A stretch of DNA of 4,783 bases from Naegleria gruberi (lineage: Eukaryota). The stretch is taken from the NCBI GenBank assembly GCA_000004985.1, contig GG739173.1. One strand, given 5' to 3'. A program made the translations under genes and the position numbers. The notes beneath the pieces are model-generated. The model saw nothing but the letters and a program-made list of their open reading frames with translations, ran no database searches and was not told the origin of the DNA. Shown piece after piece: positions 1-4,783 of this stretch (its first letter is position 1; each line of letters opens with the position of its first letter).

Positions 1-53
1 AGATGTATTTAGTATTAATGCATACAACAATACCTTATCAAGCTTATTTTTAG

Positions 54-439
54 AATACTTGCATCCTGATATTCCAATAGCAAAAGCAATTAAGAATTAC
101 CATACTCAATTTGCCTCATTATTGACATTGGTGTTTGAAAAAAACGTTAAAATAATTCAAGCTGAATTGGAGAAGGAAAAACAAAGTTTAGATTTAAACA
201 TCAACAACTCAAAAAGGCTTGAAAAAATTGAACAAATGTTAAATCTTACCAAATCACAGAAAGAAAAAGAATATCTTTGTTTGTTTAAGGAAATATGTAA
301 CAAACACAACTACCCTCATATTTCTGACGTTCAACGTTATTCCATGTTTCATTTAAGCTTAGATGGACCTTTTGTTCCAACAACAGAAGATCCTTATGAA
401 CAGTACGATCAATCAGATGATGAAATGGAAAATCTCTAA
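54..439 (+). CDS. Terminal coding exon of an unidentified protein. The C-terminal region is predicted coiled-coil (ELEKEKQSLDLN...RLEKIEQMLNL) followed by an acidic tail (EDPYEQYDQSDDEMENL). The exon is partial: the gene continues upstream of the window.
   Basis: The frame is open from nt 2 to TAA at 437-439. A strong acceptor (cttatttttAG, AG at 52-53) sits after 53 nt of 24% GC intron-like sequence, so the exon probably starts at 54 in phase 1. AATAAA lies 12 nt after the stop. The amino-acid composition is protein-like and not low-complexity. The tool's 'start' at 59 is TTG, not ATG. Confidence 0.5.
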
Positions 440-450
440 CATATTTTGTA

Positions 451-456
451 AATAAA
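451..456 (+). terminator. Canonical polyadenylation signal AATAAA for the upstream + strand gene
   Basis: The hexamer aataaa at 451-456 lies 12 nt downstream of the TAA stop at 437-439. Confidence 0.5.
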
Positions 457-948
457 AGAAATCGAATTTTCTATCATTACTCTTATTCACATACGAGAAG
501 TGATACTCTTTATACAACACGAATTAATAAAAAAGAGATTGGAAAAAACTAAAAGACCACAACACGACAACTTAAATGTTTCGATAGTAAACACACAAAA
601 TAAAGTTCAAATAATATTTAGACAATTGGGTATAAAAGCTCAGGGGCTGAACCACCTTAATGGTGAAACAGCCTGGAACCTGCTTTGAAGGATGTAAATC
701 TTTATTGAGCAGGTCCCGAGATAATTAAAATTTGTCTGTAAAAAAAAACTTATCAATAGTTGACCTAAGGATAAGAAAAAAACATCAGACCAGCGATAAA
801 TGTGAACTTAGTAGTACCGTTTGGTGGTTTAGTGTGTTTCTCGATCTAAATTCGAGTTTGAATATAATTTTTGTACATTTTCACAATTTATTTTGTTGTT
901 ATATGAGAATTGATTTTTTGTATTTTATTTTTTTGATAAATTATTGGG

Positions 949-951
<3 letters not shown>

Positions 952-979
<28 letters not shown>
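952..979. repeat. (AT)14 dinucleotide microsatellite
   Basis: A perfect 28-nt at/ta run is seen directly in the sequence. Confidence 0.95.
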
Positions 980-982
<3 letters not shown>

Positions 983-1020
983 AACAAAAATTATATTTAT
1001 CTATGTTAGAAAAATCATTT

Positions 1021-1135
1021 CCCTTTTATTCTTCATCATGCTCCTCCTCATGTTTTTTACACATCCTGTCTTTATCAAATCCCATTCTCACTACATCCTT
1101 TTCATCATAATTCCTCGCAAATTCATTTATCTGTT
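1021..1135 (+). repeat. Strand-asymmetric C/T-rich, G-depleted low-complexity tract. It is about 75% pyrimidine with about 5% G on the + strand.
   Basis: Base counts over 1021-1140 give only about 6 G in 120 nt, against about 30% C. It is built from tcctc, catc and ctcat-like short motifs. Confidence 0.6.
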
Positions 1136-1497
1136 CAGATTACATTTATTTACCCCTTAAAAGTGATTTTCCATTCTTCATTTTACATGAGTTTTTCGGT
1201 GATTTCTTGGTAAGAACTCTTTATTAGTAGACTTTTTGTATTTCATTTTGTTCTGTCAATAGATTTCACATATTATAACAAAAGGTTGAGCATTTGTTAT
1301 TACAATGTCTGATAATGTGTGTCTTTTGTTGCCTGTTTGAATTGGCCGTAATAACATTTTAAGGTAATAGAAACTTGAGTATGATGAGTAATACCATGAA
1401 TATATATTGTATTTCCTTTAGAATCTAGTAATTTGGTTACCTTGGTAAGTCAAGTGTTGTATATTTTCGCTTTATTAGTTGTAAATGACATTTGAGA

Positions 1498-1501
<4 letters not shown>

Positions 1502-1543
<42 letters not shown>
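1502..1543. repeat. (AT)21 dinucleotide microsatellite
   Basis: A perfect 42-nt at run is seen directly. Confidence 0.95.
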
Positions 1544-1546
<3 letters not shown>

Positions 1547-1961
1547 AGAAAAATTTATCAAGTGTGTAGTAAAATTAATTTGAGTGTAATAAATCTTTAT
1601 ATGAAAAGCTATAAAAAGTACTTTCTTTATTAGAGATCAAGTTATCGGCGTTAATTGTCTTAAAAATCAATGTTGTTAAACAACTTCAATCATATTTATT
1701 AGAATCTTGATGATACAATTTTTTAGACATACCATGTTTACCATTTAATATCGAGTAGTAAAAATATGTAAATTAAAAAAAGGAAAAAATGTTGAGTTTT
1801 GGTATTTTTTTAAAAAATGTTTTTTTGAAAAAAATTTCGATAAAAACTAGAAATTTATTAGTATTTCAATGAAAAATACGAATTTTCATACATGCGTTGG
1901 TGGGATATGTTTGTCATATTAGATATTTAATAAAAATAAAATAAAAATTTTCGCATGCATT

Positions 1962-1987
1962 TATATATATATATATATATATATATA
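1962..1987. repeat. (TA)13 dinucleotide microsatellite
   Basis: A perfect 26-nt ta run is seen directly. Confidence 0.95.
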
Positions 1988-2147
1988 CATCCGAAAAAAT
2001 TTTTGTTGAAAGTTGGTTTATAAGATGGTGGTTAAATTGGTTTATCTGAAAAATCATTTAAAAGTGATTTAAATATAAAGATAATGAAATTAATTGAAAA
2101 TTAAGAAGCTAAAATAAATTTTCAAAAATTTATCGATTTGAAATTTN

Positions 2148-3630
2148 NNNNNNNNNNNNNNNNNNNNNNNNNNNNNNNNNNNNNNNNNNNNNNNNNNNNN
2201 NNNNNNNNNNNNNNNNNNNNNNNNNNNNNNNNNNNNNNNNNNNNNNNNNNNNNNNNNNNNNNNNNNNNNNNNNNNNNNNNNNNNNNNNNNNNNNNNNNNN
2301 NNNNNNNNNNNNNNNNNNNNNNNNNNNNNNNNNNNNNNNNNNNNNNNNNNNNNNNNNNNNNNNNNNNNNNNNNNNNNNNNNNNNNNNNNNNNNNNNNNNN
2401 NNNNNNNNNNNNNNNNNNNNNNNNNNNNNNNNNNNNNNNNNNNNNNNNNNNNNNNNNNNNNNNNNNNNNNNNNNNNNNNNNNNNNNNNNNNNNNNNNNNN
2501 NNNNNNNNNNNNNNNNNNNNNNNNNNNNNNNNNNNNNNNNNNNNNNNNNNNNNNNNNNNNNNNNNNNNNNNNNNNNNNNNNNNNNNNNNNNNNNNNNNNN
2601 NNNNNNNNNNNNNNNNNNNNNNNNNNNNNNNNNNNNNNNNNNNNNNNNNNNNNNNNNNNNNNNNNNNNNNNNNNNNNNNNNNNNNNNNNNNNNNNNNNNN
2701 NNNNNNNNNNNNNNNNNNNNNNNNNNNNNNNNNNNNNNNNNNNNNNNNNNNNNNNNNNNNNNNNNNNNNNNNNNNNNNNNNNNNNNNNNNNNNNNNNNNN
2801 NNNNNNNNNNNNNNNNNNNNNNNNNNNNNNNNNNNNNNNNNNNNNNNNNNNNNNNNNNNNNNNNNNNNNNNNNNNNNNNNNNNNNNNNNNNNNNNNNNNN
2901 NNNNNNNNNNNNNNNNNNNNNNNNNNNNNNNNNNNNNNNNNNNNNNNNNNNNNNNNNNNNNNNNNNNNNNNNNNNNNNNNNNNNNNNNNNNNNNNNNNNN
3001 NNNNNNNNNNNNNNNNNNNNNNNNNNNNNNNNNNNNNNNNNNNNNNNNNNNNNNNNNNNNNNNNNNNNNNNNNNNNNNNNNNNNNNNNNNNNNNNNNNNN
3101 NNNNNNNNNNNNNNNNNNNNNNNNNNNNNNNNNNNNNNNNNNNNNNNNNNNNNNNNNNNNNNNNNNNNNNNNNNNNNNNNNNNNNNNNNNNNNNNNNNNN
3201 NNNNNNNNNNNNNNNNNNNNNNNNNNNNNNNNNNNNNNNNNNNNNNNNNNNNNNNNNNNNNNNNNNNNNNNNNNNNNNNNNNNNNNNNNNNNNNNNNNNN
3301 NNNNNNNNNNNNNNNNNNNNNNNNNNNNNNNNNNNNNNNNNNNNNNNNNNNNNNNNNNNNNNNNNNNNNNNNNNNNNNNNNNNNNNNNNNNNNNNNNNNN
3401 NNNNNNNNNNNNNNNNNNNNNNNNNNNNNNNNNNNNNNNNNNNNNNNNNNNNNNNNNNNNNNNNNNNNNNNNNNNNNNNNNNNNNNNNNNNNNNNNNNNN
3501 NNNNNNNNNNNNNNNNNNNNNNNNNNNNNNNNNNNNNNNNNNNNNNNNNNNNNNNNNNNNNNNNNNNNNNNNNNNNNNNNNNNNNNNNNNNNNNNNNNNN
3601 NNNNNNNNNNNNNNNNNNNNNNNNNNNNNN
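2148..3630. other. Assembly or scaffold gap of 1,483 N. The sequence is unknown.
   Basis: An uninterrupted run of n. The non-round length suggests an estimated gap size from scaffolding. Confidence 0.99.
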
Positions 3631-3632
3631 AA

Positions 3633-3843
3633 CCTCTCGATTTACCTTCAGATAATGAAATTATTGGACTCTCTGCTGGCCAAAATATTTCATTGGCCAT
3701 GACTATTGCTCACGAAATATTCATTGCTGGATCATTTATGGGAACTATAGATGTTTGGAGAAAGATTGTGGAGATTGATTTTTCACCTCAATCAATCTTT
3801 GATGCTTATATTATTTATAATGATGTTTACATTCTTTCTACCA
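3633..3843 (+). CDS. Internal coding exon whose 5' end is lost in the gap. It encodes an unidentified protein (...LPSDNEIIGLSAGQNISLAMTIAHEIFIAGSFMGTIDVWRKIVEIDFSPQSIFDAYIIYNDVYILST). It includes a hydrophobic, possibly membrane-spanning stretch.
   Basis: A 70-codon open frame runs from the gap edge and ends exactly at a consensus donor cca|GTAAGT (GT at 3844-3845), phase 1. The two other + frames hit stops within about 25 codons. The opposite-strand frame is open for only about 27 codons. Confidence 0.5.
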
Positions 3844-3889
3844 GTAAGTTATTTTAGAGAATTTTTTATTCGATTATGGAAAATAATAG
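3844..3889 (+). other. Putative 46-nt intron (GTAAGT...AATAG)
   Basis: The first AG that allows an intron of at least 40 nt (3888-3889) is in exactly the phase that continues into the only long open downstream frame. A 46-nt length is typical of nematode-like compact genomes. Confidence 0.4.
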
Positions 3890-4104
3890 TGGAATACGCC
3901 GTGTTTTCGAATAATAATCGAAAGGTGGTCAAGATTCAAAGCATCAACGGAATGGAAAGCTGTGCTCCCTCATTAAAATATGTAGTGTGGCATGACGAAA
4001 TTCTATTCTATTCGGATATTGATATCATTCCAAAACATTTTATTTATAAATTCAATGAAAAATTGAATTTTAATGATGTGGACATGATTTGCCAAATGTA
4101 TTGA
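3890..4104 (+). CDS. Putative last coding exon of the same + gene (…M EYAVFSNNNRKVVKIQSINGMESCAPSLKYVVWHDEILFYSDIDIIPKHFIYKFNEKLNFNDVDMICQMY*)
   Basis: It is phase-compatible with the 3843 donor (a|tg gives Met). It is the only frame open after 3890 (70 codons) and ends at TGA 4102-4104. No canonical AATAAA follows on the + strand, which is a weakness. Confidence 0.35.
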
Positions 4105-4113
4105 TTGTAACAG

Positions 4114-4119
4114 TTTATT
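4114..4119 (-). terminator. AATAAA polyadenylation signal on the - strand for the convergent - gene
   Basis: The plus-strand tttatt at 4114-4119 reads aataaa on the - strand, 5 nt after the - strand TAA at 4125-4127. Confidence 0.3.
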
Positions 4120-4124
4120 GCTTT

Positions 4125-4302
4125 TTAATGGCATATCTGTTGATGGGGATGGCTTTTGATGGTTCCAGTTAAAGAATTCCTGAATGACATAGTCAGTTCC
4201 GTGACCAGAGGACTTGGTAATGACAGAGACTGGAATGTTTGTAATTGGAGCAAAGGAAATCTTGGATGTGTAGCCAAAGATCTTTTCCTCATACAAATCA
4301 AC
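4125..4302 (-). CDS. Putative last exon of the - strand gene in the splice-consistent frame (R LICMRKRSLATHPRFPLLQLQTFQSLSLPSPLVTELTMSFRNSLTGTIKSHPHQQICH*). The frame is ambiguous: see findings.
   Basis: The acceptor ttcactttccaatcactgttattggtgcttctcttAAG|G (AG at 4304-4303) is the first AG downstream of the 4367 donor. The phase-2 donor plus this acceptor gives this frame, which ends TAA 4125-4127 immediately followed by AATAAA. The peptide is S/L/P/T/Q-rich and tail-like, whereas the overlapping frame (ORF 4003-4347) looks more globular. Confidence 0.3.
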
Positions 4303-4367
4303 CTTAAGAGAAGCACCAATAACAGTGATTGGAAAGTGAATTTTCAATCATCCATATTGAAGCTTAC
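4303..4367 (-). other. Putative 65-nt intron on the - strand (GTAAGC...CTCTTAAG)
   Basis: The - strand reads ...tat gtt ag|gtaagcttcaat...ctcttaag|g. The donor matches the AG|GTAAGT consensus and is followed in frame by TAA, so the exon must end here. A long pyrimidine tract precedes the AG. Confidence 0.45.
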
Positions 4368-4726
4368 CTAACATATGTAGCATTTAAAGAAAGGCAGAAT
4401 TGCTGAAGTGGTTGTGACAATACTGTACTCTTACAATACCCTGTTGAAGGCTCGTAAACCCAAGTCTTCATCAGTTTGAAATTATTGAAAATGGTATAAT
4501 TGTCAGCTATTGGTTCAATGAAACAAGCATCAATTCTCATCATTCCAACTTCAAAATCCACATATATGATTTGAGTATCAATAAAATCCTTGTTCAATCC
4601 GAAAGCTCTGACTTGGGCAGCAAAACCAAATGTAAATGCAAAGTTCTTGATAATAATATTAGAAACATTATTTATTACTTTCACTTTCCACTTGTTCAAC
4701 TCCAACACGAGTAATCGCGCCAAATC
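4368..4726 (-). CDS. Internal coding exon of an unidentified - strand protein (…DLARLLVLELNKWKVKVINNVSNIIIKNFAFTFGFAAQVRAFGLNKDFIDTQIIYVDFEVGMMRIDACFIEPIADNYTIFNNFKLMKTWVYEPSTGYCKSTVLSQPLQQFCLSLNATYV-). It looks like a beta-rich globular domain.
   Basis: A 119-codon open frame with complex, protein-like composition and GC elevated to about 37-40%. In-frame TGA/TAG at 4732-4727 sit immediately 5', with ...gattttaggaagctgatAG|gat giving a phase-0 acceptor at 4727/4726. A consensus donor lies at 4368/4367. There is no ATG near the 5' end, so it is internal and the gene continues beyond the window end. Confidence 0.55.
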
Positions 4727-4783
4727 CTATCAGCTTCCTAAAATCTCTAATAAAAAATCTACAAAATGCATCCGTATCCAAAT

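What the first reader, a model, noticed from the sequence alone, without database searches (positions are those of the whole stretch)
4095..4130. Convergent genes with tail-to-tail overlapping 3' ends
The + strand model stops at TGA 4102-4104. The - strand model stops at TAA 4125-4127 with AATAAA (- strand) at 4119-4114. That places the - gene's cleavage site about 15-25 nt further on, around 4090-4100, inside the last codons of the + gene. The + gene has no canonical AATAAA at all within 300 nt, so its 3' UTR must run antisense through the - gene's last exon. Overlapping 3' UTRs of convergent genes can mediate antisense regulation. Alternatively one of the two models is wrong.
Basis: inference. 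Interest (0 to 1): 0.5.

Follow-up and report, generated by a model that had tools for sequence, protein, structure and literature searches.

The report
RCC1-like gene abuts ependymin-like relic
In this Naegleria-type genome an RCC1-like gene ends about 10-20 bases from the tail of an opposite-strand ependymin-related gene copy that looks broken. The proposed overlap of two working genes therefore rests largely on a minus-strand model read in the wrong frame.

Summary
These are + TGA 4102-4104, - TAA 4127-4125, - AATAAA 4119-4114, and no + strand AATAAA or ATTAAA until 4580.

The window is Naegleria gruberi or a very close strain.

The minus-strand model is wrong. Its TAA lies in a frame reached only through the one canonical intron (4367-4303), and that frame destroys the protein homology. 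The ependymin (EPDR) homology, about 50% identity to N. gruberi XP_002675008.1, runs in another frame. That frame reads through the TAA and the AATAAA to TAG 4005-4003.

The copy also looks defective:
- It has no in-frame ATG or signal peptide.
- It starts directly after the stop of an upstream EF1A-family gene.
- Its intron donor has no usable acceptor.
- It lacks two conserved cysteines.
- A 98-99% identical metagenome contig carries a 262-nt net deletion and a 4-nt frameshifting insertion in it.

The + gene end is plausible: a 46-nt intron at 3844-3889, and only synonymous differences in the last exon.

Verdict: an ordinary tail-to-tail junction between a gene and a probable pseudogene. Transcript overlap is untested.

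The parts
3631..3843 (+). Penultimate exon (5' part lost in the N gap) of an RCC1-like-domain gene. Reading frame has codon starts divisible by 3.
   Evidence: 98% identical to L001 4715-4927. The full 343-aa ORF there hits Pfam WD40_RLD, RCC1 and RCC1_2. Codon log-odds +0.46, the best of six frames.
3844..3889 (+). Proposed 46-nt spliceosomal intron, CCA|GTAAGT...AATAATAG|TG, joining frame 0 to frame 1.
   Evidence: Enumeration of GT-AG introns. Both non-synonymous-looking window/L001 differences near here (SNP 3868, 3-nt indel 3882-3884) fall inside it. The length in L001 is 43 nt, which also preserves the frame. Not verified by RNA.
3890..4104 (+). Proposed last exon of the RCC1-like gene (M-EYAVFSNNNRK...DMICQMY), with stop TGA 4102-4104.
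   Evidence: Only open frame at 3892-4002, with the best codon log-odds (+0.11 and +0.37). The two window/L001 differences (3945, 3948) are both synonymous third positions. It has no homologue except the L001 ORF among 1.84 billion representatives and no Pfam hit.
4097..4109 (+). Two UGUA motifs (4097-4100, 4106-4109) flanking the + stop. No AAUAAA or AUUAAA follows them.
   Evidence: UGUA is the upstream auxiliary element in N. gruberi (PMC11529991). Whether these two are functional is an inference.
4114..4119 (-). AATAAA hexamer, the likely original poly(A) signal of the ependymin-related copy. It contains TAA 4117-4115 (frame -4783), which is the ORF stop in the L001 allele.
   Evidence: Dual-use stop/AAUAAA occurs in 11-13% of N. 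gruberi genes (PMC11529991).
4125..4127 (-). It lies in frame -4781, which is reached only by splicing 4367-4303.
   Evidence: That model keeps only Pfam Ependymin profile positions 8-52 (13.2 bits), against positions 8-120 (28.5 bits) for frame -4782.
4003..4104 (.). 102-nt stretch open on both strands in exact antisense register. It holds the last 34 + codons and the 34-codon read-through tail of - frame -4782, whose stop is TAG 4005-4003.
   Evidence: The + TGA is the complement of - TCA, and the - TAG is the complement of + CTA. The tail shows no significant similarity to the paralogue's tail (p = 0.4-0.56). Codon log-odds + 0.37 against - 0.16.
4120..4330 (-). Second coding block of the ependymin-related (EPDR) copy, frame -4782: (R)ITVIGASLKVDLYEEK...EFFNWNHQKPSPSTDMPLKS.
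   Evidence: Gapless alignment to N. gruberi XP_002675008.1. Ser AGC 4122-4120 sits where the family's conserved C-terminal Cys (P0001 Cys186) is. L001 has a 4-nt insertion between 4158 and 4159.
4331..4367 (-). 37-nt intron-like insert. It begins with the consensus donor AG|GTAAGC but ends ...TTTCC, with no AG. In-frame TAA at 4366-4364.
   Evidence: Removing exactly these 37 nt gives a gapless match NATYVRITVIGASLKVD / NATYARSDVLGGTLKVD. The only AG downstream is 4304-4303, which shifts the frame.
4368..4645 (-). First coding block of the EPDR copy, frame -4783: NFAFTFGFAAQVRAF...SLNATYV(R). There is no in-frame ATG before Met-Met at about 4540.
   Evidence: No ATG, with or without an intron, yields a signal peptide. 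Window 4263-4525 is deleted in L001.
4668..4783 (-). 3' end of an EF1A-family GTPase gene (...RFFIRDFRKLIGFGAITRVGVEQVESESNK*). AATAAA 4676-4671 lies directly before stop TAA 4670-4668.
   Evidence: The L001 5491-5958 ORF hits Pfam GTP-eEF1A_C and GTP_EFTU_D3. Sequence read. It leaves no intergenic space for a promoter or a first EPDR exon.

Best explanation
The window comes from Naegleria gruberi or a very close strain. On the + strand, an RCC1-like-domain gene most likely splices out a 46-nt intron (3844-3889) and ends at TGA 4102-4104.

On the - strand lies a decaying extra copy of the ependymin-related (EPDR) family, not a working gene. It keeps about 50% identity to the intact paralogue XP_002675008.1, but it carries several defects:
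- It has no initiation codon or signal peptide and begins immediately after the stop and AAUAAA of an upstream EF1A-family gene.
- Its one intron has a good donor (4367) but no acceptor that keeps the frame.
- It has lost the equivalents of two family-defining cysteines.
- Its homology frame has no stop before the old poly(A) signal AATAAA (4119-4114), and reads on, antisense, through the last 34 codons of the + gene to TAG 4005-4003.

Shown: the frames, the homology, the lesions and the strain polymorphisms.

Inferred: that the copy is non-functional; that its AAUAAA, if any - transcript still exists, would cut at about 4094-4104; and that the + 3' UTR runs antisense across it. The median N. 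gruberi 3' UTR is 39 nt, which would end the + UTR near 4143. Any sense/antisense overlap would then be a by-product of tight packing, not a regulatory device.
For: Organism:
- Window 3631-4262 and 4526-4783 are 98.1% and 99.2% identical to ENA metagenome contig L001.
- L001's 906-aa ORF is 96% identical over 100% of its length to N. gruberi XP_002671748.1.

Family and frame:
- The only database homologue is N. gruberi XP_002675008.1 (E = 6e-42). That protein passes the Pfam Ependymin threshold (45.4 bits).
- The alignment is gapless in frame -4782 once 37 nt are removed.

Lesions:
- In-frame TAA at 4366-4364, and no AG between 4363 and 4305.
- No ATG model gives a signal peptide.
- The EF1A-family stop is at 4670-4668.
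- Cys23 and Cys186 equivalents are absent, although they are conserved across EPDRs (PMC6280359, PMC6363788).

Relaxed constraint:
- Against L001 the copy shows 3 non-synonymous and 0 synonymous changes, a 4-nt insertion and a 262-nt net deletion (263 nt lost, 1 gained) in about 560 nt.
- The + exons show 0 non-synonymous and 2 synonymous changes in 428 nt.

Tail:
- It has no significant similarity to the paralogue's tail.
- It is open only because the + codons there avoid TTA, CTA and TCA.

Poly(A) rules come from PMC11529991.
Against: - Two ORFs of 119 and 114 codons remain open in about 33% GC DNA. Any inactivation must therefore be recent, or the gene still works with unusual features.
- Conserved core residues (RID, NIPVSVITK, EFFNW) are intact.
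- The acceptor region (4300-4370) is seen only in this assembly, so an assembly error there cannot be excluded.
- In L001 the deletion and the insertion both restore the frame and give one continuous 116-codon ORF ending at a dual-use TAA/AAUAAA. This could hint at selection for an ORF.
- The substitution counts are too small for significance (Fisher p about 0.1).
- There are no RNA data.
- The + last exon is an orphan with no homologues, and the RCC1-like profile seems to finish within the previous exon. The + stop at 4104 is therefore likely but not proven.
Confidence: 0.6

Rival explanations
1. Both genes are functional. The - gene splices 4367-4303, stops at TAA 4127-4125 and is cleaved at about 4095-4100. 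The + 3' UTR runs antisense through it, and the overlapping 3' ends mediate antisense regulation.
For: The 65-nt intron has the best canonical signals: AG|GTAAGC donor, CTTCTCTTAAG acceptor. Frame -4781 is open for 64 codons. AATAAA lies 5 nt after that stop, which suits N. gruberi's short 3' UTRs.
Against: That splice discards the frame carrying about 60% identity to the paralogue over 55 residues, and halves the Pfam Ependymin match. The 'polypyrimidine tract' encodes the conserved A-S-L-K. There is still no start codon or signal peptide. The L001 strain deletes the whole intron region.
Confidence: 0.07
2. The EPDR copy is functional and is translated in frame -4782 to TAG 4005-4003. It would use a non-canonical 37-nt intron and an unrecognised start. 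Two real coding sequences would then overlap antisense by 102 nt.
For: The homology frame is open to 4003. The tail after the Cys186 position is 38 aa, against 37 aa in the paralogue. Codon log-odds of the tail are mildly positive (+0.16).
Against: The tail is not similar to the paralogue's (p = 0.4-0.56). It is in exact antisense register with a + exon that has only one Leu and one Ser codon there, so it stays open by chance with a probability of roughly 0.4 (my estimate). An internal AAUAAA 110 nt before the stop should cause premature cleavage in N. gruberi. L001 frameshifts out of this frame. The start and acceptor problems remain.
Confidence: 0.08
3. The lesions are assembly or consensus errors near a scaffold gap. 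The true gene is intact, has a normal small intron, and ends at or next to the AATAAA, perhaps with a dual-use stop TAA 4117-4115 as in L001. It would then be a normal convergent pair with stops 10-20 nt apart and necessarily overlapping 3' UTRs.
For: The acceptor region is covered by this assembly only. A 2-nt change (ttccAGaatc) would create a 39-nt GT-AG intron in the right phase (inference). The frame -4783 ending RYAIKKQ* resembles the paralogue's RNAIKKASAKL* (score p about 0.05).
Against: The 5' defect (no ATG in frame, abutting the EF1A-family stop) is identical in the independent L001 assembly (99.2% identity, no indels). HQKP and RYAIKKQ* are in different frames in the window. Cys23 and Cys186 are replaced by substitutions, not indels.
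Confidence: 0.1
4. The + gene is not spliced and ends at TAG 3855-3857 (...YILSTSKLF*). The 3890-4104 ORF is not translated, so there is no + coding sequence next to the - AATAAA at all.
For: The exon has no homologue beyond the sister strain and no Pfam hit. The RCC1-like profile reaches about position 323 of 363 with some 40 residues of exon 1 still to come. No AAUAAA follows TGA 4104.
Against: There is a consensus GTAAGT donor 12 nt before that TAG and a TAG| acceptor 46 nt on. 71 codons stay open after the acceptor, which I estimate at about 0.5% by chance at this base composition. Both exon differences from L001 are synonymous, while the SNP and indel sit in the intron. This frame has the best codon log-odds of the six. 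No AAUAAA follows TAG 3857 either.
Confidence: 0.15

Closest known systems
Ependymin-related proteins (EPDR, Pfam PF00811), N. gruberi 'Basal-1' paralogues such as XP_002675008.1 / NAEGRDRAFT_70020
   Same: 48-50% identity over about 170 residues. The conserved RID, NIPVSVITK and EFFNW blocks are present, as are the Cys94 and Cys107 equivalents. The Pfam Ependymin match covers profile positions 8-120.
   Different: - There is no signal peptide or start codon.
- Cys23 and Cys186 equivalents are lost.
- The frame is broken at an intron without an acceptor.
- There is no stop before the poly(A) signal in the homology frame.
- The score is below Pfam's gathering threshold (28.5 against 32.3 bits).
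- No protein matching it was found in the database, whereas N. gruberi is reported to have 4 EPDR genes (PMC6363788).
Convergent gene pairs with overlapping 3' UTRs in compact eukaryotic genomes (natural antisense 3' overlaps, for example in yeast and protists)
   Same: Tail-to-tail arrangement. The stop codons and the poly(A) signal lie within 10-25 nt of each other, so transcripts from both strands would overlap.
   Different: One partner here is probably a pseudogene. No transcript evidence is available. Nothing suggests that the overlap is selected or regulatory.
Dual-use stop codon/AAUAAA poly(A) signals of N. gruberi (PMC11529991)
   Same: In the L001 allele the - ORF ends at the TAA inside AATAAA. 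The upstream EF1A-family gene ends AAT AAA TAA.
   Different: In the window allele the homology frame reads AATAAA as Asn-Lys, so the hexamer is not a stop there.

Membership tests
Ependymin-related protein family (Pfam PF00811) | Significant sequence match to the family profile, or to a bona fide member, across the domain | tested here: met
   E = 6.4e-42 and 48% identity to N. gruberi XP_002675008.1, which itself passes Pfam's threshold (45.4 > 32.3 bits). The window's own conceptual protein scores 28.5 bits (E = 1.9e-6), below the gathering score. Homology is therefore clear, but it is shown through the paralogue.
Ependymin-related protein family (Pfam PF00811) | N-terminal signal peptide (secreted or lysosomal protein) | tested here: not met
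   No in-frame ATG lies upstream of the homology. A hydrophobic ATG-led peptide (4668 onward) is in another frame. No ATG-plus-intron model gives a signal peptide.
Ependymin-related protein family (Pfam PF00811) | Conserved cysteines at alignment positions 23, 94 and 186 (PMC6280359). The 94-186 pair (human C113/C210) is present in nearly all members (PMC6363788). | tested here: not met
   The alignment to P0001 shows the Cys93 and Cys106 equivalents present. The Cys25 equivalent is Phe or Ala, and the Cys186 equivalent is Ser (AGC 4122-4120).
Ependymin-related protein family (Pfam PF00811) | Intact ORF of about 200-220 aa | tested here: not met
   The frame breaks at 4366-4331, with an in-frame TAA and no AG acceptor. 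Three frames end at 4127, 4117 and 4005.
Convergent genes with overlapping 3' UTRs (cis natural antisense pair) | Two expressed genes on opposite strands whose mature transcripts share sequence | not testable with these tools
   No RNA data. Geometry only: - AATAAA 4119-4114 predicts cleavage at about 4094-4104, and the + CDS ends at 4104.
Convergent genes with overlapping 3' UTRs (cis natural antisense pair) | Both partners are functional genes | tested here: inconclusive
   The + partner is plausible. The - partner carries several lesions and is polymorphic for frameshifting indels.
RCC1-like domain proteins (Pfam PF25390 / PF00415) | RCC1 repeats forming the propeller (+ gene) | tested here: met
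   The L001 orthologous ORF gives RCC1 36.5 bits (threshold 21.7), RCC1_2 33.9 bits, and WD40_RLD E = 1.9e-20, which is below its own threshold. The window fragment gives RCC1 21.2 bits. The terminal exon 3890-4104 shows no RCC1 similarity.

The most novel reading that the evidence does not exclude
The EPDR copy is alive and two real coding sequences overlap antisense, codon for codon, over 102 nt (4003-4104). The orphan last exon of the RCC1-like gene would then have arisen by overprinting on the EPDR tail, or the reverse. The two frame-restoring indels in the sister strain would reflect selection to keep an ORF that ends at a dual-use TAA/AAUAAA.
Probability: 0.07. Interest if true: 0.55.

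Novelty: new member of a known kind. Interest (0 to 1): 0.2.

Why it matters
The main value is for annotation. An ab initio model that takes the only canonical acceptor gives a frame-shifted ependymin-like protein and a false stop. It also suggests a pair of working genes with overlapping tails.

Recognising the locus as a probable EPDR pseudogene, a fifth and decaying copy beside the four reported in N. gruberi, prevents that error. It also gives a small example of gene-family turnover between Naegleria strains.

If both strands were shown to be transcribed, the locus would be a convenient test of how an AAUAAA-driven cleavage site is tolerated inside the last codons of a convergent neighbour in a genome with roughly 39-nt 3' UTRs.

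Tried and rejected
- A 16-nt or 14-nt mini-intron at 3844, and +1 ribosomal frameshifting at TTT-TAG, for the + gene. Both were dropped once the organism proved to be Naegleria (minimum introns about 30 nt, PMC8296547) and a 46-nt GT-AG intron fitted the polymorphism pattern.
- Ciliate or Euplotes genetic codes. These were rejected because the long L001 ORFs are intact under the standard code.
- +1 frameshifting at AGG-TAA in the - gene. It runs into TGA five codons later.
- Homology of the - tail to the paralogue's tail. Not significant.
- Looking up the source contig or the N. gruberi loci by exact protein. Nothing was on record, so the intron position in the paralogue could not be checked.
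- Two metagenome scans. The first found nothing. The second gave only L002, a weak hit biased by the search pattern.
- A HMMER search of the + last exon against 1.84 billion representatives. It found only the sister-strain ORF.
- A PDB sequence search of the paralogue. EPDR1 matched only at E of about 0.8.
- Rfam and tRNA scans of the window. No hits.
- A literature search for the metagenome project PRJEB11402. No hits.
- The codon log-odds test cannot separate the two strands cleanly, because they are in exact antisense register.

Full report
**What is in the window**

The window is AT-rich eukaryotic scaffold sequence with a 1,483-base N gap at 2148-3630. To the right of the gap both strands carry long ORFs that meet near 4100.

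- The + ORF ends ATG TAT TGA, with TGA at 4102-4104.
- The - strand has TAA at 4127-4125 and AATAAA at 4119-4114.
- The + strand has neither AATAAA nor ATTAAA from 3978 to 4579.

**Organism**

A prokaryote-style ORF from an ENA metagenome contig (L001, 5,960 nt) matched the + ORF. Window 3631-4262 and 4526-4783 are 98.1% and 99.2% identical to L001.

L001's 906-aa ORF is 96% identical over its full length to Naegleria gruberi XP_002671748.1. The only homologue of the - strand protein is also from N. gruberi, XP_002675008.1. The locus is therefore N. gruberi or a very close strain, read under the standard genetic code.

Direct RNA sequencing in N. gruberi has shown the following (PMC11529991):
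- AAUAAA is the dominant poly(A) signal.
- It lies typically 15-20 nt before the cleavage site.
- The median 3' UTR is 39 nt.
- The stop codon overlaps the hexamer in 11-13% of genes.
- UGUA occurs upstream and U-rich sequence downstream.

Other genes here give internal controls:
- The gene ending at 437-439 is followed by UGUA and then AATAAA at 447-456.
- The EF1A-family gene on the - strand ends AAT AAA TAA at 4676-4668.
- L001's flavodoxin-like gene has AATAAA 43 nt after its stop.
- L001's 906-aa gene has none.

A missing hexamer, as for the + gene, is therefore not exceptional.

**The + gene**

L001 shows that it is an RCC1-like-domain protein. In the window the reading frame changes near 3850.

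Of all GT-AG possibilities, a 46-nt intron (3844-3889; CCA|GTAAGT...AATAATAG|TG) is the most plausible. Naegleria introns go down to about 30 nt (PMC8296547).

Under this model the SNP at 3868 and the 3-nt indel at 3882-3884 between the two strains are intronic. The only two differences in the last exon (3945, 3948) are synonymous third positions. That exon's frame is the only open one at 3892-4002 and has the best codon log-odds.

Against it, the 70 residues have no homologue among 1.84 billion representatives except the sister-strain ORF and no Pfam match. The RCC1-like profile also appears to finish within the previous exon. I accept TGA 4102-4104 as the + stop with about 80% confidence. 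The alternative is an unspliced end at TAG 3855-3857.

**The - gene**

Its translation is 48-50% identical to XP_002675008.1, which passes Pfam's Ependymin threshold.

The homology sits in two blocks. Block A (4645-4368) is in frame -4783 and ends ...NATYV(R), then runs straight into TAA at 4366-4364. Block B (4330-4120) is in frame -4782.

The break coincides with a consensus donor, AG|GTAAGC, at 4367. Removing exactly 37 nt (4367-4331) gives a gapless alignment, NATYVRITVIGASLKVD against NATYARSDVLGGTLKVD. That segment, however, ends TTTCC.

No AG exists between 4363 and 4305. The only usable canonical acceptor (4304-4303) gives a 65-nt intron that shifts into frame -4781.

Its Pfam Ependymin match falls from 28.5 bits (profile 8-120) to 13.2 bits (profile 8-52).

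**Where the - ORF ends**

In the homology frame the match continues through HQKPSPS and a Pro-x-x-Ser. That motif aligns with the family's C-terminal Pro-x-x-Cys, and the Ser is AGC at 4122-4120. The frame then reads AATAAA as Asn-Lys and stays open to TAG 4005-4003. This gives a 102-nt overlap with the + coding sequence.

The 38-residue tail is not significantly similar to the paralogue's tail (p = 0.4-0.56).

The tail is in exact antisense register with the + codons. The - TAG is the complement of a + CTA Leu codon, and the + TGA is the complement of a - TCA codon. The stretch holds only one Leu and one Ser codon on the + strand, so it could easily stay open by chance. Codon log-odds favour the + frame, 0.37 against 0.16. 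I read the tail as read-through, not as real coding sequence.

**Evidence that the - copy is decaying**

1. No in-frame ATG precedes the homology. The ORF begins inside, or directly after, the EF1A-family gene, whose stop is 4670-4668. That leaves no room for a promoter or first exon. A systematic search of ATG-plus-intron models gives no signal peptide, although a signal peptide is conserved in EPDRs (PMC6280359). This region is identical in the independent L001 assembly, so it is not an assembly error.
2. The intron lacks a frame-preserving acceptor.
3. The equivalents of Cys23 and Cys186 are replaced. The 94-186 disulfide is the most conserved feature of the family (PMC6363788).
4. In L001 the copy has a 4-nt insertion between 4158 and 4159 and a 262-nt net deletion spanning window 4263-4525 (263 nt lost, 1 gained). 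All three substitutions between the strains are non-synonymous, whereas the + exons have only two synonymous ones.

**Counter-evidence**

- The two blocks are still open ORFs of 119 and 114 codons.
- The core motifs are intact.
- The counts of differences are small.
- Both L001 indels restore the frame. They give a continuous 116-codon ORF ending at the TAA inside AATAAA, which I cannot explain beyond coincidence (about 1 in 9).

**Mechanistic reading**

The AATAAA at 4119-4114 is probably the copy's original poly(A) signal. If a - transcript is still made, cleavage would fall at about 4094-4104, within the last three + codons. In the window allele that mRNA would lack an in-frame stop.

The + mRNA must extend past 4104. 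With a typical 39-nt UTR it would end near 4143, crossing the hexamer in antisense. Any overlap would be a few tens of nucleotides, and a consequence of tight packing next to a dying gene. Nothing here suggests a selected regulatory overlap, and no RNA evidence could be consulted.

**Verdict**

- The locus is an ordinary tail-to-tail junction between an RCC1-like gene and a probable ependymin-related pseudogene in Naegleria.
- Interest is low. The residual novel possibility is a genuine 102-nt antisense overlap of two coding sequences, at about 7%.

Noticed in passing
window 1-2147 versus L001 1-4714: The sequence left of the N gap (2148-3630) has no similarity to what lies upstream of the RCC1-like gene in the 98%-identical contig L001, namely a flavodoxin-like gene and a 906-aa PI3Ka/LRR gene. 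A collinear fit would also need more than the 1,483 Ns. This points to a structural difference between strains, or to a mis-sized or mis-joined scaffold gap.
   Followed up: partly
L001 5196-5546 (window 4158/4159 and 4263-4525): In the sister strain, the 262-nt net deletion (263 nt lost, 1 gained) and the 4-nt AACC insertion are both frame-restoring. The insertion creates the palindrome GAACCATGGTTC. Together they fuse the ependymin-like blocks into one 116-codon ORF that stops at the TAA inside AATAAA. This may be coincidence or selection for an ORF.
   Followed up: partly
window 59-456: The 3' end of another + strand gene (...DEMENL*, TAA 437-439) has no Pfam match. It is followed by UGUA 447-450 and AATAAA 451-456, a textbook N. 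gruberi poly(A) context.
   Followed up: partly
window 4668-4676 (- strand): The EF1A-family gene ends AAT AAA TAA, so its poly(A) hexamer is the last two codons. An ATG (4668-4666) overlaps the stop by one base (TAATG) and opens a hydrophobic peptide, MFLILLSRTLHLHLVLL, in a frame different from the ependymin homology. This may be the remnant of the lost signal peptide.
   Followed up: partly
window 952-979, 1498-1543, 1962-1987: Three (AT)n microsatellites of 13-23 copies lie in a 1.7-kb AT-rich (about 20% GC) stretch with no convincing ORF. AATAAA is over-represented in the window as a whole (25 observed, 14.9 expected).
   Followed up: no
window 4144-4115 (- strand, frame -4783): A third frame reads ...INRYAIKKQ* and ends at the TAA inside AATAAA. 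It resembles the paralogue's C-terminus ...FRNAIKKASAKL* (shuffle p about 0.05). This may be the ancestral C-terminus, now out of frame with HQKP.
   Followed up: partly
L002 6001-6111 (JGI contig Ga0102594_1000063): An unrelated 35% GC metagenome contig encodes a short IQEFFNW-containing stretch with 51% identity over 37 residues. The scan pattern itself included that motif, so this is probably a chance or very distant match.
   Followed up: no
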